Source: Candidatus Moranbacteria bacterium GW2011_GWC2_40_12 (GTDB lineage Bacteria; Patescibacteriota; Minisyncoccia; Moranbacterales; UBA11712). From it: 64,000 bases of DNA. The stretch is taken from contig LBYD01000001.1 in assembly GCA_000995965.1 (NCBI GenBank), forward strand, positions 76,923 through 140,922, written 5' to 3'. How positions within the stretch are numbered: position 1 is the first letter of the stretch; each line of letters starts with the position of its first letter. The position numbers were made by a program, and so were the translations under genes. Shown in pieces: positions 33,509-60,765 of the stretch. The notes beneath the pieces are model-generated. The model saw nothing but the letters and a program-made list of their open reading frames with translations. It was not told where the DNA came from and searched no databases.

Positions 33509-36091
33509 TTACGGCCTGGCTTGCAGGCTGTTGATTTTTTGGATTAAGTCCTGAATTTCGCTAAGAAGCACGGCAGGCGTTGTGTTCAATCTTTTGGCCG
33601 CTGCTATGCCAATTTTTAATTTTTCAAATCCGAGTATTGCAAGCAGTCTTATCTCAGATGGCTTTAGACGCTTGATCACTCCAGCGATTTCCGGTCTGAC
33701 GCCGTTCTTTTTCGGGTCTTTTTTTTCAAGCCTAAATTGAACAGCTCCAGAAAACTCGGGATCAAGGATTAAAGTATTGTCGTCTGCGAGCAACATAGGT
33801 TGCCACTTCTTGTTAATGCTCGGCGACCTTTCCGGTGGGACGCGAGGAATCGGCATTTCGGCTGCCGGAATAACCGGAGGCTCAATCGGGAAAATCGGCG
33901 TGCCGATCTCCGAAAAAAGCATCACAATCACTTGAGGCGGTTGGCCAAAAATAAACCTCCTTTCGCCGTCATTCCTTGTGTATGAGGTGCGAAGCGGCGG
34001 AACGCGCGGAACACGTATTTTGTCTTTCAGGATAACCGGAGGCTCAATCGGAAAAATCGGCGTGCCGATCTCCGAAAAAAGCATCTCGGTTATTCTTGGA
34101 GGATCACCGAAGACAAACCTTTTTTCTCCGATAATTTCCGTATCAGGAGATTTAGGCTTTTTGGATATGGCATTCTCCGAAACGACTTCCTTATCCTCAA
34201 AGGGTGGGTAATACCTTGGATAGCAAGCCGGCGGGCGCCGCGGCCTCGGACGATGATCCTGCGGATGCTCGCAGAGCGGAATTACAACATCCTCCACTTT
34301 TCCCGAACGCCAGTGTTTGGCGTTAAAAATTATTTCGAAATGTTGACGGTCAGGAAACGCGGGATAGTACGGATTTGAGCCCTTTTTCCTGCGATTTCCG
34401 TTAGCCGAACCCTCATCATAAAAGGATTTCAATCTTGTGACACGGGACGGATGCCGAAGTTTGCGCAGGGCTTTGGCTTCAATCTGCCGGATGCGTTCGC
34501 GCGTGACTTCGAAATCTTTATCATGCCCGACCTCCTCCAAAGTCATATCTTTTGCTTCCCCGATGCCGAAGCGCTTGCGAAGGACTTTTTCCTCGCGCGG
34601 CGTCAATGTGGTCAGCATCTTGCGGGTTTGGTCTGCCAGATTGAGACTGGCGACTGCCTCAAATGGAGTGGAAACTTTCTCATCTTTTATGAAATCGCCC
34701 AGAAAATCATTCTCATCTTCACCGACAGGAGTTTCGAAGGATATTGGTTCCTTCGCGATTTTGAGGACTTTCAGCACTTTCTCCAAAGGAAATTCCATCT
34801 TGTCGGCGATTTCTTCGGCAGTTGGCTCTCGCCCCATTTCCTGGACCAGATACCGCGAGGTCCGGATAAGCTTATTGATGGTTTCGATCATATGGACCGG
34901 TATGCGGATGGTGCGAGCTTGATCGGCGATGGCGCGGGTAATGGCCTGCCTGATCCACCAGGTGGCATATGTGCTGAATTTGTAGCCGCGCTCGTATTCG
35001 AACTTTTCCACGGCTTTCATGAGACCGACATTGCCTTCCTGGATGAGATCCAGGAATTGAAGCCCGCGGTTGGCGTATTTCTTGGCGATGCTCACCACCA
35101 GCCGCAGATTGGCTTCTACCATTTCCCGTTTGGCCTTGTGAGCTTTATACTCGCATTTTTCCAGTTTTTCCACAGTGGCCAGCAACTGGCCAGAAGGGAG
35201 ACCGATAATCTGTTCGTATCTTCGCAGTTCGTTGCGGGTTTTATTTTGCAGGTATTTCAGCTCTTCGAATCTCTCCGGTGCTAAGCCGGCCGGCAGCAGA
35301 ATTTCTGCTTCCTGTTTGGACTTCCGGACAATGTCCCTGAGCTTTGTTTCAGATATTTTGGCACAGGCGAACGCCGCATTTTTCTTGCGGATGAGATCGC
35401 GCGCCGCGGAGGCGATCACGCGCAAATCCTCGGCGATTGCCTGAAAATAAATCGGCTCGAGACGCAGTGCTTCGAAGCGATCAGCCAGACGCCGACGGGC
35501 CGCGACAATGGACCGCTGAATTTGATCAACTTCATCGCTGTCCGGCGGAAGGACTGCCAATCTTTCGCCCAGCAGGTTAATTTTTTGATATTCCGCCAAA
35601 AATCCGGAAATAATCCAAGAATTCCTGGATTTTCGATCTGCCGGATCCGTGTTCAGGTCTTCTTCGCCGAAGTCGTCGATTTTTTCTTCAGCCTTCGACA
35701 TTTTATAATTCGTTCCGTGTTTCAAGCCTTTGACGAAGTCGGCGACATTTCTCAATGAGTAAGGAATCTCAAAGAGGGTCGAAAAAAATTCTCTCTCGCC
35801 AGCTTCAATCCGTTTGGCAATCGCGACTTCCTGCTCGCGGGTAAGAAGAAGAGGAATTTCACACATATCTTTGAGATACAGGCGAACAGGATCGTCGAAT
35901 TTCATCGAAGCTTCTGTTTCAGCGTCTTTTTCTTGAAGTAGCGGACGTTCGTTAATCTCCCCTTCCTCGTTTGTTTCGTCGGCAAGATCCGATTCATAAG
36001 ATGATGAAAGCGTCCCGAAGTCTTCTACGGGTTCTCCGTTTGACAGTTGGTCAATCATAATATCCGTGACAGAATCGTCGTCGTAAGACAT
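33509..36091 (-). CDS. rpoD: RNA polymerase sigma-70 factor RpoD (regions 1.1-4.2) with roughly 290-aa non-canonical C-terminal extension containing a 54-aa tandem repeat
   Basis: Region 2 ([34 protein letters not shown]), region 3, region 4.2 ([29 protein letters not shown]). Canonical AAGGAGGTGA SD 8 nt upstream. Single 860-codon frame. Confidence 0.85.
33870..34085 (-). repeat. Two 54-bp near-identical direct repeats 162 bp apart inside the rpoD 3' extension (encode [29 protein letters not shown] modules)
   Basis: ataaccggaggctcaatcgg(g)aaaatcggcgtgccgatctccgaaaaaagcatc at 33870..33923 and 34032..34085. Confidence 0.8.
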
Positions 36092-54824: not shown

Positions 54825-55664
54825 ATGCAAAAAGAAAATCCGGAATTTTATCGGAAAAATCAAAACAAAATTTTTATTCTGGGGTTTGTCCTGATTTTAG
54901 CCGTGATCAGCTGGTCTTTAGTCCGGCCGATTATCTTCAAAAATACCCAAAAAGAAGAAAAAGATTCAAAAATAAATGAAGAGATTCTCAAAGCTCCATT
55001 GATTACTTTGAAAGAATTTTCCGAAAAAATTAGGGACAACGAAAAACTGTTCATCGTCGATCTCCGAAACGCCGGTGATTTTTCCGCGGGGCATATAGCC
55101 GGTGCAATAAATTTTCTGCCCGGAACAGGCCTGGCAGATCAAATCAAAAAGGCCGGTGCTGAAAATACGACCAACATTGTTATCGTGAATAAAGGCGAAA
55201 ATGTTTTTGAGGCTGCCGAAGCGGCTAATGATATCATTGCCGCGGGTTTCGTGAATGCGAAATATCTTCGCGGGGGAATAACGGACTGGCGCAATGAAGG
55301 TTATACTTTGGTTTCAGGAGGAAATTCTCCAGGCGATCAAAGCAAAATAAAAAAAATAACAGTTGAAAAATTAGCCAGTGAACTTTCAGGCGGAGACGAA
55401 CTTGTCCAATTTATTGATATAAGAGACAAAGAAAAATTCAATCAAGGCCACATACCAAGGTCAATCAATCTTCCGCTTCCCCATCTTGAATCAAACCAGA
55501 AAGCCATTTCTCCCGTAAAAAAAGCAGTTGTTTATGGTGAAAACGAGGAAGAAGCGAGCAAGGCGGCAGTGATTCTATTCGACCTGAATTTTTTCAATGT
55601 CTATGTTCTTGACGGCGGATTGGCATCCTGGAAAAACAATAACGGAAAAATAGTGAGCGACTGA
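54825..55664 (+). CDS. Membrane-anchored tandem rhodanese-domain protein
   Basis: N-terminal TM, two rhodanese-like modules (FIVDLRNAGDFSAGHIAGAINF and FIDIRDKEKFNQGHIPRSINL); active-site Cys not obvious. Confidence 0.65.
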   Translation: MQKENPEFYRKNQNKIFILGFVLILAVISWSLVRPIIFKNTQKEEKDSKINEEILKAPLITLKEFSEKIRDNEKLFIVDLRNAGDFSAGHIAGAINFLPGTGLADQIKKAGAENTTNIVIVNKGENVFEAAEAANDIIAAGFVNAKYLRGGITDWRNEGYTLVSGGNSPGDQSKIKKITVEKLASELSGGDELVQFIDIRDKEKFNQGHIPRSINLPLPHLESNQKAISPVKKAVVYGENEEEASKAAVILFDLNFFNVYVLDGGLASWKNNNGKIVSD

Positions 55665-55687
55665 CAGTTTAAAGCCGAGCCTTAAAA

Positions 55688-55718
55688 AAAATCCCGCGGA
55701 AAGCGGGATTTCAAAATG
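55688..55718. terminator. Bidirectional hairpin terminator between convergent rhodanese gene and groES (ATCCCGCggaaaGCGGGAT flanked by A- and T-runs)
   Basis: aaaaaaaATCCCGCggaaaGCGGGATttcaaaa. Confidence 0.55.
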
Positions 55719-55735
55719 CTTGGCTTTTGTTGTCT

Positions 55736-56011
55736 CTATTTTACTATTGCCAAAATGTCCTCGTTCTTGACCAAAAGATATTCAGCTTCCCCGATCTTGA
55801 TTTCATTTCCGGAATATTTCGAATAGATCACCTTTTGTCCGGCCTTCACTTTGATTTTTTTATCCATTCCGACGGCGATAACAACACCTTCCTGCGGCTT
55901 TTCTTCACTTGTGTCGGGAAGGACGATGCCGGAAGCGGTTTTCGAGTTTGATTTCGCGGGTTCAATCAGGACGTTCTCGCCTAGAGGTTCAATATTGGGT
56001 TTTTTTGCCAT
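55736..56011 (-). CDS. groES: Co-chaperonin GroES (10 kDa)
   Basis: MAKKPNIEPLGENVLIEP ... GIVLPDTSEEKPQEGVVIAVG. Confidence 0.9.
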   Translation of the reverse strand: MAKKPNIEPLGENVLIEPAKSNSKTASGIVLPDTSEEKPQEGVVIAVGMDKKIKVKAGQKVIYSKYSGNEIKIGEAEYLLVKNEDILAIVK

Positions 56012-56051
56012 GGCTTTGAAAAATTATGATTAGCTGTTTTGGAAAAATTAT

Positions 56052-56303
56052 TTAAACCATTCTTTTTTTCGTGAATTCTTCAATTTTCGCGTCGGGCTGG
56101 ATACCAACTGTTTTTTTTCTCTCAATAATGAATATATATATTATTTCAAGGATTCCGAGGGTGTTTAGGAGCAAAAGTGCTATAAACCAAATCATTTCGC
56201 CTTGTCTGGCCGATTTCCACAGTGCAATTCCTTTCCAGACAAGGGTCCAGATGATGAGCGGAATCAGAATCAAATAATTGTTGAGCAGCGATGTTAGATC
56301 CAC
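56052..56303 (-). CDS. Small two-TM membrane protein (DUF5652-like)
   Basis: 83 aa, two hydrophobic helices, WKGIALWKSARQGE loop. Confidence 0.5.
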   Translation of the reverse strand: MDLTSLLNNYLILIPLIIWTLVWKGIALWKSARQGEMIWFIALLLLNTLGILEIIYIFIIERKKTVGIQPDAKIEEFTKKRMV

Positions 56304-56367
56304 AGAAAAAAATTAAACACGAGGGTTATATCTATTGCACCCCATTAGAGTACTTTTTGGATTCACT

Positions 56368-56625
56368 TTAGGCTTCTTTGACTTTAAAAACAGTGGCTCC
56401 TTCTTTTGTCGGACTTGGCACCTTGATCGCAATCTCTTCGCCCTTTTTTCCTTTGCTGACGGGCTCATGGTTGAGCTGGATCGAATCAGCTTTGAGCTCA
56501 AATTCATTGTCTCCTTTCACGAATTTGAGCGGATCCCCCGCCTTGACGACTTTCGACAGTTTCACGACAGCTACCATCGCCTTGTCAAAATAATGAACCA
56601 CTTTTCCGATTTCTTGATCGGCCAT
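56368..56625 (-). CDS. Hypothetical small protein (85 aa)
   Basis: Protein-like composition; no recognisable motif. Confidence 0.45.
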   Translation of the reverse strand: MADQEIGKVVHYFDKAMVAVVKLSKVVKAGDPLKFVKGDNEFELKADSIQLNHEPVSKGKKGEEIAIKVPSPTKEGATVFKVKEA

Positions 56626-56682
56626 ATTTTTGTGGTTAACGTATTCCTAATACTAGCAAACTTTCATTTTTTTTTCAACCCT

Positions 56683-56710
56683 TGAAAAATTGGGCGAATT
56701 TCAGTAGAAT
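56683..56710 (+). promoter_or_regulatory. Candidate sigma70 promoter (TTGAAA, 16-bp spacer, TAGAAT) about 15 nt upstream of the truncated tRNA-Gln copy
   Basis: cccTTGAAAaattgggcgaatttcagTAGAATatgaagg. Confidence 0.45.
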
Positions 56711-56726
56711 ATGAAGGTTGATATAT

Positions 56727-56772
56727 TCCGGGATCGTCTAATGGTAGGACGCCTGACTCTGGATCAGGTAAT
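56727..56772 (+). pseudogene. 5' fragment of tRNA-Gln(CTG) (acceptor 5' strand, D-arm, anticodon arm and variable loop; positions 1-46) lacking T-arm and acceptor 3' strand
   Basis: Identical over 50 bp (56723..56772) to 57100..57149, the 5' part of the complete tRNA-Gln downstream. Confidence 0.75.
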
Positions 56773-57099
56773 TGGGGTTCGCCCGATCATCCGATCGGGC
56801 GGCCGGTCGTATGACCGGCCGAATCCCTCAAACATGAATGCATTACATTTATATTCTTTCACTAGGAAATAATAGCTTGTATAAAGGCAGGACTGATAAT
56901 ATTAAAAGGAGAGTATCAGAGCATCAGGCCGGGAAAGTGGAAGCAACCAAATATAAACTTCCAGCCAGATTAATTCACTTTGAATGCTACGTTGTAAAGA
57001 GTGATTGTATACGGCGGGAGAAATATTTAAAAACTACTGAAGGCAGAAGATTTTTAAAACAACAGTTGAGAGATTTATTTAAAAAAATTGTTGGTTAAC
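56773..57099 (+). mobile_element. About 330-bp insert between duplicated tRNA-Gln 5' segments: degenerate T-arm-like start (GGGGTTCG...AATCCC), two GC-rich hairpins, GIY-YIG ORF
   Basis: Hairpins CCCGATCatccGATCGGG and CGGCCGGTCgtatGACCGGCCG at 56781..56820; flanked by 50-bp direct repeat. Mobility is an inference. Confidence 0.35.
56838..57098 (+). CDS. YhbQ/UPF0213-like GIY-YIG nuclease superfamily protein (86 aa)
   Basis: YIYILSL..NSLYKGRTDNIKRRVSEHQ aligns with GIY-YIG motifs (GIY, YIG, Arg, Glu, His). Confidence 0.75.
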   Translation: MHYIYILSLGNNSLYKGRTDNIKRRVSEHQAGKVEATKYKLPARLIHFECYVVKSDCIRREKYLKTTEGRRFLKQQLRDLFKKIVG

Positions 57100-57103
57100 A
57101 TAT

Positions 57104-57177
57104 TCCGGGATCGTCTAATGGTAGGACGCCTGACTCTGGATCAGGTAATCTTGGTTCGAATCCAAGTCCCGGAGCCA
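57104..57177 (+). tRNA. tRNA-Gln (anticodon CTG), CCA encoded, U1:A72
   Basis: Manual fold: acceptor TCCGGGA/TCCCGGA, D-arm GTCT-AATGGTA-GGAC, anticodon arm CCTGA-CTCTGGA-TCAGG, T-arm CTTGG-TTCGAAT-CCAAG, discriminator G, CCA. Confidence 0.85.
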
Positions 57178-57270
57178 CATTGTATGTTCAGCGTTTTCCA
57201 CTATGCCATTAAAGAGTGTTTAACCTCAAATAAAAGGTTATTGACTTGTAAAGAAAAATTCTGAAGTAAG

Positions 57271-57293
57271 AAACCCATCAGTTGGGTTTTTTT
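57271..57293 (+). terminator. Rho-independent terminator after tRNA-Gln (AACCCA tcagt TGGGTT + T7)
   Basis: aagaAACCCATCAGTTGGGTTttttttgg. Confidence 0.55.
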
Positions 57294-57354
57294 GGTTCGA
57301 AAATTTGGAATAAGTCCCAAGACTGTAGAACAATATTCTGGTATACTCATATAT

Positions 57355-58170
57355 ATGAAAAAAAACATTCTCATTGTCCTTGTTTTGGTTATTTTCATTG
57401 CTTTTGCATGGTGGCACTTCACTGCCACTGAAGACGAAAGAACTGGCTCGCAAAAAAACAATCAGCCAACGCTTTCCGACTATTCAACCGCGCCTGCCGA
57501 CAATGTCACTGCACCTGCAAAAAAAGTCAGGTGGAACTTTGATGGCGAAGAGTATGCTCCTTCCGGGACGCCCCGGGCATGCCCTGATCCGCTTGAGATC
57601 GAATCGCCCGTTGATGTTTCAAAAGCGTCTTCGATCCTGTATCCGGGCCAATACCGCGGTGATGATTTTAAGGCGCACGGCGGATTTAGGTTTGATGGGT
57701 ATCGGAGCGACGCCATAACCGTCACAGTGCCTCTGGATGCCCGGCTGCAAGACGCGAGCCGGTATATTGAGGATGGGCAGGTTCAATATTTATTTGATTT
57801 TATCCATGACTGCGGCATCATGTACCGATTTGATCATCTGGCAACCCTAACTCCGCGATTTGAGGCGTATGCCCGGCAATTGCCTGAAGCGAAAGTGAAT
57901 GATTCACGAACGACCCTGTTTCCCGATGATGTGTACGTCACGACGGGCGATGTCATCGCAACCAGCGTCAATCGGGAGGGTAATGTATTTGTCGATTTCG
58001 GCGTGTATGATCTGCGCCAAAAAAATGGCATAACCATTGATGAAAAAAATTCGTTGGCGAGACATGGCATCTGTTGGTTTGACCTGCTGCCCGCTTCAGA
58101 CGCGCAGAGAGTAAAATCATTACCTGCCAGCGATGAACGGTCAGGCGCGAAGAGTGAGTATTGCAGGTAA
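57355..58170 (+). CDS. Hypothetical secreted/membrane-anchored protein, GC-rich (about 50% GC)
   Basis: N-terminal TM/signal (MKKNILIVLVLVIFIAFAWW); no family recognised; start at ATG 57355. Confidence 0.5.
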   Translation: MKKNILIVLVLVIFIAFAWWHFTATEDERTGSQKNNQPTLSDYSTAPADNVTAPAKKVRWNFDGEEYAPSGTPRACPDPLEIESPVDVSKASSILYPGQYRGDDFKAHGGFRFDGYRSDAITVTVPLDARLQDASRYIEDGQVQYLFDFIHDCGIMYRFDHLATLTPRFEAYARQLPEAKVNDSRTTLFPDDVYVTTGDVIATSVNREGNVFVDFGVYDLRQKNGITIDEKNSLARHGICWFDLLPASDAQRVKSLPASDERSGAKSEYCR

Positions 58171-58190
58171 ACCACCGTAACATTCGATTT

Positions 58191-59027
58191 ATGAAAAAAA
58201 CAAAACAACCAAAAATCGGTCTGGCTTTGGGTAGCGGAGCGGCGAGGGGTCTCGCCCACATTGGCGTGATAAAAGTCTTGGAAGAGAATAACATTCCAAT
58301 CGACTGCGTTGCCGGCTCCAGTATCGGCGCCGTGATTGGCGGCCTTTGGGCGTCAGGGCTGGGCATAGCAGAAATTGAAAAAATTGTTTTGGATATGACC
58401 AATCGGGATGTGTTCTCTTTGGTCGATCCTCGCATGGGGAAAGGATTTATAAAGGGAGAAAGGATAAAATCTTTCATTGAAAGCAACTTGGTGGCCAAAA
58501 ACTTCGAGGATTGCCGGGTGCCGTTTGCGGCCACCGCGACTGACATAAAAACAGGCGAAATCGTGGTTCTTCGCAGCGGGAATATAGCCGATGCCATTCG
58601 AGCCAGCATTTCCATGCCATTGGTTTTTCAACCGGTGGAAAAGGACGGAAAAACATTGGTTGATGGAGGAGTGGGAGCGCCGGTTCCGGTTGAAATTGTG
58701 CGAAAAATGGGCGCGGATATTGTTATTGCCGTCAATTTAGACAAACACTATGTGGATGATAATTGGCGATCCGGCCTGTTGGACATCGCCCATGATTCGA
58801 TGAATATCATGCGCCATTATTTATCCTTTTATCAATCAAAAGAAGCGGATATCGTCATAAATTTAGATTTGGGATCCAACAAATGGTATGATTTTGTGAA
58901 CGGACAAAATAAAATTCTGGCCGGTGAAAAAATGATGAAAAAAGAAATACCTTCTCTCAAAGAACTTATTCGCTCGAAAAGGAAAAGCAATCTCGGAAAA
59001 TTGTTTGATTTTTTTAAGAATGTTTAA
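58191..59027 (+). CDS. Patatin-like phospholipase
   Basis: Oxyanion GLALGSGAARG, nucleophile elbow AGSSIGA (GxSxG), catalytic Asp in LVDGGV (DGG). Confidence 0.8.
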   Translation: MKKTKQPKIGLALGSGAARGLAHIGVIKVLEENNIPIDCVAGSSIGAVIGGLWASGLGIAEIEKIVLDMTNRDVFSLVDPRMGKGFIKGERIKSFIESNLVAKNFEDCRVPFAATATDIKTGEIVVLRSGNIADAIRASISMPLVFQPVEKDGKTLVDGGVGAPVPVEIVRKMGADIVIAVNLDKHYVDDNWRSGLLDIAHDSMNIMRHYLSFYQSKEADIVINLDLGSNKWYDFVNGQNKILAGEKMMKKEIPSLKELIRSKRKSNLGKLFDFFKNV

Positions 59028-59260
59028 ATTTAAACAATTTTCCGTAAGGATACTTTTTGGAAATTGATTAAAAATTCAGACGGCGCGCCAGCTCCGCTGG
59101 CACGAAATTCGGCGACGGCGGAAAAGCGAAAGCAGGCAAAAATTCCTTCCCCCAACCCCTTTTCTTTTTGCCCGCCCGAGCGTAAAAGTTTTTCAAAATT
59201 CAGCGTTCGGATTTTCGCTAAAAAAAGTTCGGATTTCGTTCAGCGTTCGGAGCCAAATTT

Positions 59261-59818
59261 ATGAAATATAAATTCTGCCCAAAATGTGGAGGAAGATTGA
59301 AAATAAAGAAAGCTGCTTTTCCAAGGTTTTGGTGTTTGGATTGCGAATTTGTTTTCTACCAAAATTCGAAACCAACAGCAAGCGCCTTAATAATCGATGG
59401 AGATAAAGTGTTGCTTGGAAAAAGAAGGATCAATCCTTCAAAGGGAAAATGGGATATTATCGGCGGATTTTTGGAAGATGGAGAACATCCCGAAGCTGGA
59501 ATGAAAAGAGAAGTCCTGGAGGAAAGCGGTCTCAGAGTCCGTGTTATCGACAGACTTGATTTTATAATGGATACCTACGGAGCAGAAAAAGAATCAACTC
59601 TTAATATTACATACATTGTGAAAATTAGGAGCGGCAAAATGAAACCGGGCGACGATATTTCAGAACTGCGATGGTTCAGTATTGGAAAATATCCTAAAAA
59701 TATTGCATTCAAAAATGGGAAGCAAATGCTTCGGGATTTGAAAAGGTGGTATTCGAAAAGAAATATATATGTTCGAAGTTTTCCTCACAGCCCCAGAATA
59801 AAAAAATTACGTAACTAG
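59261..59818 (+). CDS. NUDIX hydrolase with N-terminal C4 zinc ribbon (NudC-like architecture)
   Basis: CPKCGG...CLDCEF zinc ribbon; Nudix box GGFLEDGEHPEAGMKREVLEESGL. Confidence 0.8.
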   Translation: MKYKFCPKCGGRLKIKKAAFPRFWCLDCEFVFYQNSKPTASALIIDGDKVLLGKRRINPSKGKWDIIGGFLEDGEHPEAGMKREVLEESGLRVRVIDRLDFIMDTYGAEKESTLNITYIVKIRSGKMKPGDDISELRWFSIGKYPKNIAFKNGKQMLRDLKRWYSKRNIYVRSFPHSPRIKKLRN

Positions 59819-59821
59819 TTA
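59801..59821. terminator. Perfect 20-bp palindrome TTACGTAACTAGTTACGTAA between convergent NUDIX and ftsX genes; T-run on minus strand
   Basis: aaaaaaTTACGTAACTAGTTACGTAAttggtg; overlaps NUDIX stop codon; shares CGTAATT core with heptad elements. Confidence 0.45.
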
Positions 59822-59853
59822 CGTAATTGGTGCTGCACGGCAAGATAATTTAT

Positions 59854-60765
59854 TTACACCTTCAAATATCTCCTGATCGCGAGGATACTGCTGATGATAC
59901 CCAAAAAAACACCCACAAAAAGCTGGGCAATGAAGATCAAAACGAAATATCTGATGAAATCAGCCTGAATGATCTGAACATACGCCGAACCGACGACGTA
60001 GGGAGTGACAACTTTCATGATCGGATAAAGAAGAATAATCGAAATAACAGCCGCGAAAATTCCATAAATTACGCCCTCGAAAACAAAGGGCAGGCGAATG
60101 AAATTGTTTGAAGCCCCGACGAGCCGCATTATTTCAATTTCCGTTCCGTGGTTGAAAATTGTCATCCGGATGACGTTGAAAGTGATGAGAATCGCGATAA
60201 GGGAAAATAAAACGAAAAGAAACGCCCCGGTCTTTCGGATCGTTTTGATGGTCGTATTGAAGCGGTCAATAACAAGCTTATATTGCTGGTAGTTGATGCT
60301 GGCTATATTGTCCCGATAGCTTGAATTCTCAACCGATTTGGCAATAATATCATATTGCTCCGGGTTTGCGGCTTTGATGTTCACGGAGGCAAGAAGCGGA
60401 TTTTCTTCGACGGCCTCGACAGCTTTCAGGATGTCGGGTTTTCCGGCATTGGCAGCCTTGAAATCATCGAGGGCTTTGTTCTTCGAAATATATTCGGCGG
60501 CCTTGACTTCCTTGTATTTTTGAATTTCGGAACGAAAAGCCATTATGTCCTGCTCCTCAACATTGCCTTTGAAATAAACTCGAATATCAATCTTATCCTG
60601 GACATACTTGAGTCCCATATTAGCACTGATAGAAATAACCAGGATAACGCTGATGATGAGAAGCGCCAGCGTCAGAATACTGACCGCCGCCACAGTCAAA
60701 GACCCATTTCGAAAGAAATTTTGAAAACCGGACTTGAAAGTTCTGGTGAGAGTCAAAATTATCAT
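59854..60765 (-). CDS. ftsX: Cell division ABC transporter permease FtsX
   Basis: Four TM helices with large first extracytoplasmic loop; downstream of ftsE with 4-bp overlap. Confidence 0.85.
   Translation of the reverse strand: MIILTLTRTFKSGFQNFFRNGSLTVAAVSILTLALLIISVILVISISANMGLKYVQDKIDIRVYFKGNVEEQDIMAFRSEIQKYKEVKAAEYISKNKALDDFKAANAGKPDILKAVEAVEENPLLASVNIKAANPEQYDIIAKSVENSSYRDNIASINYQQYKLVIDRFNTTIKTIRKTGAFLFVLFSLIAILITFNVIRMTIFNHGTEIEIMRLVGASNNFIRLPFVFEGVIYGIFAAVISIILLYPIMKVVTPYVVGSAYVQIIQADFIRYFVLIFIAQLFVGVFLGIISSILAIRRYLKV

What the first reader, a model, noticed from the sequence alone, without database searches (positions are those of the whole stretch)
57355..59818. GC-rich three-gene islet (secreted hypothetical protein, patatin-like phospholipase, Zn-ribbon NUDIX) immediately downstream of the disrupted tRNA-Gln locus
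Base composition rises to roughly 50% GC over about 2.5 kb, against about 38-40% in the rest of the window. This starts right after the tRNA-Gln terminator and ends at the convergent ftsX. tRNA genes are classic integration sites. A secreted protein, a patatin-like lipase (GxSxG plus DGG dyad) and a NudC-like hydrolase is a combination seen in host-interaction and anti-phage contexts. No integrase or cyclic-nucleotide synthase is present, so this is an acquired islet rather than an identifiable defence system.
Basis: partly seen in the sequence, partly recalled or inferred. Interest (0 to 1): 0.5.

Follow-up and report, generated by a model that had tools for sequence, protein, structure and literature searches.

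The report
Variable gene cassette beside tRNA-Gln
This is an ordinary species-specific 3-kb gene cassette in a variable slot between a tRNA-Gln gene and ftsX in a Moranbacteria (CPR) genome; it carries three unrelated everyday enzymes, is not a defence system, and is not really GC-rich.

Summary
The three genes exist as described: a secreted protein, a patatin lipase and a Zn-ribbon NUDIX. The GC argument fails. The window averages 43.3% GC, not 38-40%, and the flagged region averages 44.3%. Only about 1.5 kb (57250-58750) reaches 47-52%, and the NUDIX gene is 37%. Third-codon-position GC of the first two genes equals the window mean, and rpoD is richer.

Comparative genomics still supports a lineage-specific insertion. 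Sister Moranbacteria keep the same flanks. Two of them have tRNA-Gln directly against the ftsX terminator. Others carry different cargo there, such as an MFS transporter, an ASCH-NUDIX protein or TspO. Homology with the two collinear sisters breaks at about 56720 and 59800, so the variable cassette is about 3.1 kb. It also includes a decayed tRNA-Gln copy, a GIY-YIG gene and the intact tRNA-Gln.

The parts
56682..56710 (+). Sigma-70-like promoter TTGAAA-17-TAGAAT of the ancestral tRNA-Gln gene. It marks the left conserved anchor of the variable slot.
   Evidence: 10 of 12 consensus match. The same promoter block sits upstream of the single tRNA-Gln in L012, L013 and L015. Homology to L013 and L015 ends at 56719 and 56725.
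56716..56830 (+). Decayed tRNA-Gln copy. Its first ~50 nt are identical to the intact copy. The T-loop is interrupted by a 39-nt double GC hairpin, and the 3' acceptor strand is missing.
   Evidence: Direct repeat D1, 66 nt at 92% identity with 377-bp spacing. Rfam tRNA score 30.9 bits against 64.6 for the intact copy. ARAGORN does not call it.
56838..57098 (+). 86-aa GIY-YIG catalytic-domain protein lying between the two tRNA-Gln copies.
   Evidence: PF01541, E 6.9e-12. Absent from L013 and L015, where tRNA-Gln lies about 100 bp from the 85-aa gene. The exact protein was found only at this locus.
57104..57177 (+). Intact tRNA-Gln(CTG), sequence type A.
   Evidence: ARAGORN. Rfam 64.6 bits.
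57271..57293 (+). Terminator-like hairpin AAACCCA-tcagt-TGGGTTT followed by a T run, after tRNA-Gln.
   Evidence: Read directly from the sequence. The consensus scan did not list it.
57355..58170 (+). Gene 1: 271-aa extracytoplasmic protein with an N-terminal hydrophobic helix, a disordered linker and a LytM/M23-fold domain containing 4 conserved Cys.
58191..59027 (+). Patatin-like phospholipase, 278 aa, RssA-like.
   Evidence: PF01734, 110.7 bits. NCBIfam RssA model 165 bits against a cutoff of 272. Motifs located. Graded homologues at 88 to 60% identity, with Patescibacteria names wherever a source names the organism.
59069..59256 (+). About 185-nt GC-rich intergenic repeat element. The 66-aa ORF called over it is probably spurious.
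   Evidence: Other copies are in L006, L131, L074 and L005. The reading frame is not conserved between copies. No Rfam hit.
59261..59818 (+). Zn-ribbon NUDIX hydrolase, 185 aa. Its last ~6-9 codons run into the conserved ftsX-terminator flank.
   Evidence: PF14803 and PF00293. Most homologues are about 160-175 aa and cover 85-91% of the query. Homology to L013 and L015 resumes at 59801 and 59791.
59805..59828 (.). Perfect 12+12 palindrome AATTACGTAACT/AGTTACGTAATT, a bidirectional terminator shared with ftsX. It marks the right conserved anchor of the slot.
   Evidence: Inverted repeat I25. A homologous hairpin follows ftsX in L013 and L015.
57186..57195 (+). GTTCAGCGTT, 9 nt after the tRNA-Gln 3' end. 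It is one of only two exact copies in the window. The other is at 59238-59247, at the end of the repeat and 14 nt before the NUDIX ATG.
   Evidence: This is a candidate short direct repeat around gene 1 + patatin + repeat. My rough estimate of chance occurrence is about 0.01, so it is weak.

Best explanation
The window comes from Candidatus Moranbacteria GW2011_GWC1_45_18 (Patescibacteria/CPR). Between the conserved promoter of tRNA-Gln and the conserved terminator of ftsX lies a recombination-prone slot whose content differs between closely related species. In this species the slot holds a ~3.1-kb cassette (about 56720-59800). Its contents, in order, are a decayed tRNA-Gln copy, a GIY-YIG gene, a functional tRNA-Gln, gene 1, patatin, a ~185-nt repeat and a NUDIX gene.

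The three protein genes are independent and of the everyday kind:
- Gene 1 is an exported LytM/M23-fold protein acting on or binding peptidoglycan (fold shown, activity inferred).
- The patatin gene is an RssA-type serine-aspartate lipid acyl-hydrolase, most likely involved in membrane-lipid turnover or scavenging (motifs shown, substrate inferred).
- The NUDIX gene is a Zn-ribbon nucleoside-diphosphate-X pyrophosphatase of the YjhB/ADP-ribose type (motifs shown, substrate inferred).

They do not form a functional system. The cassette most likely arrived or was reshuffled by recombination using the conserved flanks (tRNA-Gln and its promoter on one side, ftsX and its terminator on the other), from other Patescibacteria of similar composition, possibly in more than one step. 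The route is inferred. The raised GC of gene 1 and the patatin 5' part reflects their amino-acid content.
For: - Source and fixation. Gene 1 is 100% identical to UX02_C0002G0330 of Moranbacteria GW2011_GWC1_45_18. The same arrangement recurs on more than 20 contigs from several samples and assemblers.
- Collinear sister genomes. L013 (FtsX 93% identical), L015 (83%) and L018 (74%) keep PriA, Def, Fmt, Rhodanese, GroES and DUF5652 on one side. L013 and L018 keep FtsX, FtsE and PrfB on the other; L015's contig shows FtsX and FtsE before it ends. None has gene 1, patatin or this NUDIX.
- Empty sites. In L012 and L015 the tRNA-Gln lies 42-57 nt from the ftsX stop.
- Different cargo elsewhere. L013 carries MFS + DUF3850/ASCH-NUDIX + two unknown ORFs. 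L018 carries an AEP-like protein + MFS. L014 carries TspO.
- Breakpoints of homology fall at 56719/56725 and 59801/59791.
- The promoter and the terminator are conserved across sisters.
- The tRNA-Gln body itself occurs in two sequence types and two orientations among sisters.
- The genes are not a module. Close patatin homologues (85, 82 and 72% identity) and gene-1 homologues (51-58%) sit in unrelated contexts and are never adjacent.
- Gene 1 has no homologue above 58% identity, although sister FtsX proteins are 70-93% identical.
- Composition is consistent with amino-acid content.
- Protein assignments rest.
Against: - No integrase, no significant flanking direct repeats and no clear tRNA 3' remnant were found, so the insertion mechanism is not shown. 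The anchored remnant test is only marginal, p 0.001-0.04.
- Normal GC3 means there is no compositional sign of recent foreign origin.
- Patatin and NUDIX have graded homologue series (88 to 60% and 79 to 45%). These could equally be vertical orthologues relocated within the genome rather than imports.
- Only nine sister loci were available, and several are truncated at the critical side.
- Gene 1 lacks the canonical M23 HxxxD and HxH motifs. A weak hhalign alignment places R112 at the Asp position. It may therefore be a non-catalytic LytM factor.
- No biochemical data exist for any of the three proteins.
Confidence: 0.7

Rival explanations
1. The arrangement is ancestral and vertically inherited. 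The sister genomes lost or replaced the genes, so nothing was acquired in this lineage.
For: GC3 of gene 1 and patatin equals the window mean. Patatin and NUDIX have graded series of close homologues, as expected for orthologues. No mobility gene flanks the three ORFs.
Against: Two sisters of different depth have a clean empty site, and three others carry unrelated cargo. This requires several independent precise deletions and replacements. The closest patatin homologues lie in other contexts. Gene 1 has no homologue above 58% identity. The NUDIX ORF terminates only inside the conserved flank, as expected for an insert.
Confidence: 0.15
2. The three genes form an anti-phage or host-interaction module, with a patatin effector, a NUDIX nucleotide-signal hydrolase and a secreted factor.
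For: Weak PADLOC hits: phospholipase effector 27 bits and PDC-S07 NUDIX 44 bits. The location is a variable islet. Patatin effectors and NUDIX proteins do occur in defence systems (general knowledge).
Against: The CBASS lipase model scores 20.5 bits against a cutoff of 200, while the RssA-type model scores 165 bits. There is no cyclase, sensor or other partner within 10 kb. The genes are never adjacent in the six other contexts examined. Patatin is a very common 278-aa protein whose named homologues are Patescibacteria, with hundreds at or above 60% identity. No viral relatives were found.
Confidence: 0.05
3. Gene 1 is the EnvC-like LytM partner of the adjacent FtsEX complex, so the cluster is a cell-division and cell-wall-hydrolysis module.
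Against: Sister genomes with 74-93% identical FtsX have no gene 1 next to ftsEX. Gene-1 homologues in other genomes are not near ftsEX. The model shows a disordered linker and not the coiled coil that EnvC uses to bind FtsX (EnvC architecture from general knowledge). Patatin and NUDIX lie between gene 1 and the convergent ftsX.
Confidence: 0.07
4. The junctions are metagenome assembly artefacts, meaning a chimera at the repeat or at the tRNA.
For: Contigs L005, L006 and L008 break, carry a scaffold gap or turn chimeric exactly inside the 185-nt repeat.
Against: The full arrangement through NUDIX and ftsX is identical on many independent contigs from NCBI, JGI and ENA assemblies of different samples.
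Confidence: 0.02

Closest known systems
tRNA-associated genomic islets and flexible genomic islands (general knowledge of bacterial genome plasticity)
   Same: It is adjacent to a tRNA gene and bounded by conserved core genes. Content differs between close relatives, including empty sites, and the cargo consists of accessory genes.
   Different: It is only 3 kb. It has no integrase and no tRNA-3'-derived direct repeats. Synonymous composition is normal. The tRNA gene itself lies inside the exchanged block and occurs as two unrelated alleles and two orientations.
RssA (YchK)-type bacterial patatin-like phospholipases (PF01734, COG1752)
   Same: It has the GxGxxG oxyanion motif, the GxSxG nucleophile and the DGG aspartate. 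Its best NCBIfam match is RssA (165 bits).
   Different: The score is below the equivalog cutoff of 272. The match covers only residues 5-185, and the C-terminal ~90 residues are specific to the Patescibacteria clade. The substrate is unknown.
LytM/M23 domain proteins (Csd3, EnvC, DipM, SpoIIQ, LytM, lysostaphin)
   Different: It has no sequence-level match to PF01551 or to any PDB chain. Canonical HxxxD and HxH motifs are not evident. It has its own invariant set (Y96-P-G-Q99, R101, H108-G-G, D160-H161, D214, D219 and 4 Cys). The domain is about 210 aa against roughly 100-130 for M23.
NudC (NAD+ diphosphatase) and YjhB-type ADP-ribose pyrophosphatases
   Same: It has an N-terminal four-Cys zinc ribbon followed by a Nudix box (GX5EX7REUXEEXG).
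   Different: The NudC model scores 54.9 bits against 158, and there is no SQPWPFPxS motif. At 185 aa it lacks the NudC N-terminal domain. It is closer to the short Patescibacteria NUDIX proteins that JGI labels YjhB.

Membership tests
Classical tRNA-integrated genomic island | Adjacent to a tRNA gene and absent from close relatives | tested here: met
   L012 and L015 have tRNA-Gln abutting the ftsX terminator. L013, L018 and L014 carry other cargo.
Classical tRNA-integrated genomic island | Integrase or recombinase gene at one end | tested here: not met
   No such Pfam family appears in the called genes within +/-10 kb. The only nuclease-type gene is an 86-aa GIY-YIG.
Classical tRNA-integrated genomic island | Direct repeat of the tRNA 3' end at the distal boundary (attL/attR) | tested here: inconclusive
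   Unanchored alignment is not significant. Alignment anchored on the terminator gives p 0.001-0.04 against the L015 tRNA 3' end. The only strong repeat duplicates the tRNA 5' part and brackets the GIY-YIG gene.
Classical tRNA-integrated genomic island | Atypical base composition or codon usage | tested here: not met
   GC3 is 0.48 and 0.47 against a window mean of 0.475. For the whole region, 26% of equal-sized windows are as deviant or more so. NUDIX is a low-GC3 outlier, which is the opposite of the claim.
Patatin-like phospholipase (PF01734) | Pfam score above gathering threshold, plus the GxGxxG, GxSxG and DG[GA] motifs | tested here: met
   110.7 bits against 27.7. GSGAARG at 14, GSSIG at 42, DGG at 158.
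RssA equivalog (NF007623) | Whole-protein score of at least 272 bits | tested here: not met
   165.2 bits, and only the first 185 residues match.
CBASS / defence patatin effector (CapV-like) | Match to the effector model, with an adjacent CD-NTase or other sensor | tested here: not met
   NF041079 scores 20.5 bits against 200. PADLOC effector models score at most 27 bits. No cyclase lies within 10 kb.
NudC NAD+ diphosphatase | Zn ribbon plus Nudix box | tested here: met
   CPKC at 6 and CLDC at 25. The Nudix box is at residue 69.
NudC NAD+ diphosphatase | SQPWPFPxS motif and the equivalog score | tested here: not met
   The motif is absent. NF001299 scores 54.9 bits against 158.
Peptidase M23 / LytM | LytM beta-barrel fold | tested here: met
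Peptidase M23 / LytM | PF01551 sequence match and the HxxxD + HxH zinc and catalytic motifs | tested here: not met
   No Pfam hit and no PDB sequence hit. A weak hhalign alignment places H108-x3-R112 where HxxxD is expected. There is no HxH; the invariant pair is D160-H161. Residue equivalence was not verified on coordinates.
EnvC-type FtsEX-activated LytM factor | Coiled-coil FtsX-binding domain and conserved linkage to ftsEX | tested here: not met
   The model has a TM helix, a disordered linker and a globular domain. Linkage to ftsEX is absent in the sisters and in the three homologue contexts examined.

The most novel reading that the evidence does not exclude
The tRNA-Gln/ftsX slot may be a dedicated cassette-exchange site in Patescibacteria. 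In this reading, incoming DNA brings its own tRNA-Gln copy, leaving decayed 5' fragments of the old one, as seen here and in the L005 tail. The GIY-YIG nuclease would make the break. The ~185-nt conserved repeat would be a new mobile or structured element serving as a second recombination anchor. That repeat is near-identical in a genome whose FtsX is only 38% identical, where it again lies next to tRNA-Gln, and its 5' hairpin shows compensatory changes. Separately, gene 1 would define a new LytM-like cell-wall enzyme family specific to CPR.
Probability: 0.12. Interest if true: 0.55.

Novelty: new member of a known kind. Interest (0 to 1): 0.25.

Why it matters
This is a worked example of GC content misleading where comparative synteny gives the right answer. 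It documents a small, integrase-free variable slot at tRNA-Gln/ftsX in Moranbacteria and shows how reduced CPR genomes still swap accessory genes. It assigns a LytM-type fold and a likely peptidoglycan role to a family of about 650 clusters that is currently hypothetical. It also flags a conserved 185-nt repeat that breaks metagenome assemblies. None of this changes current concepts.

Tried and rejected
- Direct or inverted repeats bounding the three genes. Only chance-level short matches were found. The one strong repeat (66 nt) brackets the GIY-YIG gene.
- A tRNA 3' remnant at the ftsX side. Local alignment was not significant. The anchored test was marginal, so it is kept only as a hint.
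- Rfam search over 55500-60500 at E<=1. Only the two tRNA hits appeared, with nothing for the spacer.
- Metagenome scan with an 18-mer of the repeat.
- Viral-contig scans for the repeat core, the gene-1 family and patatin. All were empty.
- Exact-protein look-ups of the 66-aa spacer ORF and of GIY-YIG. Both occur only at this same locus, so there is no sign of multiple copies.
- A profile of the gene-1 family against PDB sequences gave no hit. hhalign against one M23-family protein from L009 gave only a 20-column weak match.
- The afdb50 fold library was unavailable.
- Literature searches for Patescibacteria + patatin, and for CPR genomic islands at tRNA genes, returned nothing directly relevant.
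- The L005 contig was considered as a natural recombinant. I judged it a chimera, because its tail has FtsX at 38%, FtsE at 58% and PrfB at 48% identity.
Full report
**Source.** Gene 1 is 100% identical to hypothetical protein UX02_C0002G0330 of Candidatus Moranbacteria bacterium GW2011_GWC1_45_18. The same 20-kb neighbourhood occurs, identical or nearly so, on more than 20 contigs from NCBI, JGI and ENA assemblies. The organism is a CPR/Patescibacteria bacterium, and the arrangement is not a one-off assembly product.

**1. The observation**

- Gene 1 (57355-58170) begins with a hydrophobic helix.
- The second gene (58191-59027) is a patatin with GSGAARG, GSSIG and DGG motifs.
- The third (59261-59818) has two CxxC pairs followed by a Nudix box.
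- tRNA-Gln(CTG) lies at 57104-57177 and ftsX is convergent at 59854-60765.

The composition claim does not hold.
- The window averages 43.3% GC and the flagged region averages 44.3%.
- Only 57250-58750 reaches 0.47-0.52. The patatin 3' end, the spacer and NUDIX are at 0.38-0.40.
- Third-position GC is 0.481 for gene 1 and 0.471 for patatin, against a window mean of 0.475 +/- 0.051. The excess in gene 1 lies at codon positions 1 and 2, and the protein is rich in D, A, R, G and P.
- NUDIX is a low-GC3 outlier at 0.339.
- The richest stretch of the window is rpoD (49.3%, peaks of 52%). CTP synthase reaches 47.7%.
- The GC step inside patatin also appears in two of three homologues from other genomes, L009 and L010.

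**2. What the proteins are**

*Gene 1.*
- It has no Pfam, NCBIfam, PADLOC or PDB-sequence match.
- An AlphaFold model built on 70 homologues has pLDDT 88.9. It shows a TM or signal helix (2-22), a disordered linker and a beta-rich domain.
- The family numbers 646 clusters at 50% identity, 254 of them at E<=1e-30. Every hit for which a source names an organism is a Patescibacteria lineage or unclassified "bacterium".
- Some members are fused to PG_binding_1 or to a canonical Peptidase_M23 domain. This points to peptidoglycan as the target.
- The canonical HxxxD and HxH motifs are not evident. The invariant residues are Y96-P-G-Q99, R101, H108-G-G, D160-H161, D214, D219 and four cysteines.
- Whether it is a hydrolase or a non-catalytic LytM factor remains open.

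*Patatin.*
- PF01734 scores 110.7 bits. The best NCBIfam model is RssA at 165 bits, below the equivalog cutoff of 272. The CBASS lipase model scores only 20.5 bits.
- Homologues form a graded series from 88% down to about 60% identity. Hundreds of them are 278-aa proteins, and those with organism names are Patescibacteria.

*NUDIX.*
- Zn_ribbon_Nudix and NUDIX domains are present.
- It is not NudC: the model scores 54.9 bits against 158, and the SQPWPFP motif is absent.
- Most homologues are about 160-175 aa, so the last ~15-25 residues here are lineage-specific.

**3. The comparison with sister genomes**

Searching one genome per species with FtsX returned nine Moranbacteria loci at 70-93% identity.
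- L013, L015 and L018 are collinear with the window on the PriA, Def, Fmt, Rhodanese, GroES and DUF5652 side. L013 and L018 also match FtsX, FtsE and PrfB; L015's contig shows FtsX and FtsE before it ends. None has gene 1, patatin or this NUDIX.
- In L012 and L015 the tRNA-Gln lies 42-57 nt from the ftsX stop, separated only by a terminator hairpin.
- L013, the closest sister, has 3.3 kb of different cargo: an MFS transporter, a DUF3850/ASCH-NUDIX protein and two unknown ORFs.
- L018 has an AEP-like protein plus the MFS transporter. L014 has TspO.
- Nucleotide homology between the window and L013 stops at 56719 and resumes at 59801. Against L015 it stops at 56725 and resumes at 59791, and L015 has only its 74-nt tRNA-Gln in between.

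The variable block is therefore about 56720-59800. It is bounded on the left by the conserved tRNA promoter TTGAAA-17-TAGAAT. On the right it is bounded by the conserved palindromic ftsX terminator at 59805-59828. The block includes the decayed tRNA-Gln copy, the GIY-YIG gene and the intact tRNA-Gln, not only the three ORFs. The NUDIX ORF stops only inside the conserved flank, as expected for inserted DNA.

Among the sisters the tRNA-Gln itself exists as two unrelated sequence types and in two orientations. The window and L013 share the promoter but not the tRNA body. This slot is a recombination hot spot.

**4. Not a module, not a defence system**

- Patatin homologues at 85, 82 and 72% identity sit in three unrelated contexts.
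- Gene-1 homologues at 51-58% identity sit in three other contexts. The genes are never adjacent.
- No integrase, cyclase or sensor lies within 10 kb.
- PADLOC matches are weak or generic.
- No relatives were found on viral contigs.
- The proximity of a LytM-fold protein to ftsEX is incidental, because it is absent in the sisters and the protein lacks a coiled coil.

**5. Origin**

- Gene 1 has no homologue above 58% identity, although sister FtsX proteins are 70-93% identical. This favours import from a more distant Patescibacteria lineage.
- Patatin and NUDIX have close homologues, so relocation within the clade or transfer between near relatives cannot be told apart.
- Normal GC3 means either long residence or a donor of similar composition.
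- The mechanism is not shown. The evidence consists of conserved flanks suitable for homologous replacement; a 66-nt duplication of the tRNA 5' part around the GIY-YIG gene; a single exact 10-mer, GTTCAGCGTT, both 9 nt after the tRNA and at the end of the repeat; and a marginal tRNA-3'-like remnant after the ftsX terminator (not significant).

**6. The spacer 59069-59256**

- Other copies are in L006 (93.6%), L131 (88%), L074 (two partial copies) and L005.
- In L005 a 99% identical copy joins the window sequence to a genome whose FtsX is only 38% identical, again beside a tRNA-Gln. This is most likely an assembly chimera across the repeat.
- L008 ends inside the repeat, and L006 has a scaffold gap there.
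- A ~60-nt core is invariant. The 5' hairpin changes by compensatory substitutions: GCCAGC/GCTGGC, GCCAGT/ACTGGC and CATTTCGC/GCGAAAT.
- The reading frame is not conserved. There is no Rfam hit, no thermodynamic signal and no viral copy. Its nature is unknown.

**Verdict.** This is a real but ordinary lineage-specific accessory cassette in a tRNA-adjacent variable slot. The composition claim is wrong. I rate the novelty as a new member of a known kind and the interest as low. The two modest leads are the uncharacterised LytM-like family and the 185-nt repeat.

Noticed in passing
window 59069-59256; L006 12265-12453; L131 1570-1745; L074 20-107(-) and 1866-1917(+); L005 11707-11889: A ~185-nt GC-rich intergenic repeat with an invariant ~60-nt core (ACGAAATTCGGCGRYGGCGGAAAAGYGAGGGCGGGCAAAAATTMCTTCCCCC) and a 5' hairpin that varies by compensatory changes. 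Contigs end, carry gaps or become chimeric at it. There is no Rfam family for it, and it is neither coding nor found in viral contigs.
   Followed up: partly
window 56716-57177: Tandem tRNA-Gln arrangement. The promoter-proximal copy is decayed: it has a 39-nt double GC hairpin in the T-loop and no 3' acceptor strand. An 86-aa GIY-YIG ORF follows, and then the intact copy. The 377-bp unit is absent from sisters L013 and L015. The L005 tail has an analogous 5' tRNA-Gln fragment with a 72-nt GC-rich insert directly upstream of its intact gene.
   Followed up: partly
L012-L019 versus window 57104-57177: tRNA-Gln(CTG) at the same slot occurs as two unrelated sequence types. Type A (TCCGGGATCGTCTAATGG...) is in the window, L012, L014 and L017. 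Type B (TGGGGAGTAGCCAAGCGG...) is in L013, L015, L018 and L019. It also occurs in either orientation, and neither feature tracks FtsX relatedness.
   Followed up: partly
L005 11890-15706: Contig k141_867033 is identical to the window up to 59243. It then continues into a distant genome (FtsX 38%, FtsE 58%, PrfB 48% identity) that also has tRNA-Gln next to ftsX. It is probably a chimera through the shared repeat.
   Followed up: partly
L018 7701-8315: An AEP-like (archaeo-eukaryotic primase 1D-like) domain protein sits directly after tRNA-Gln in a sister genome's slot. It may be a relic of a mobile element.
   Followed up: no
window 56368-56625 (-): A conserved 85-aa protein with no Pfam family lies next to the tRNA-Gln promoter. 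It is 91% identical in L013 and 67% in L015, and it is missing in L018.
   Followed up: no
window 33509-36091 (-): The rpoD homologue is 860 aa, with sigma-70 regions in residues 67-547 and a ~310-residue C-terminal extension. It is also the most GC-rich and most tetranucleotide-atypical stretch of the window.
   Followed up: no
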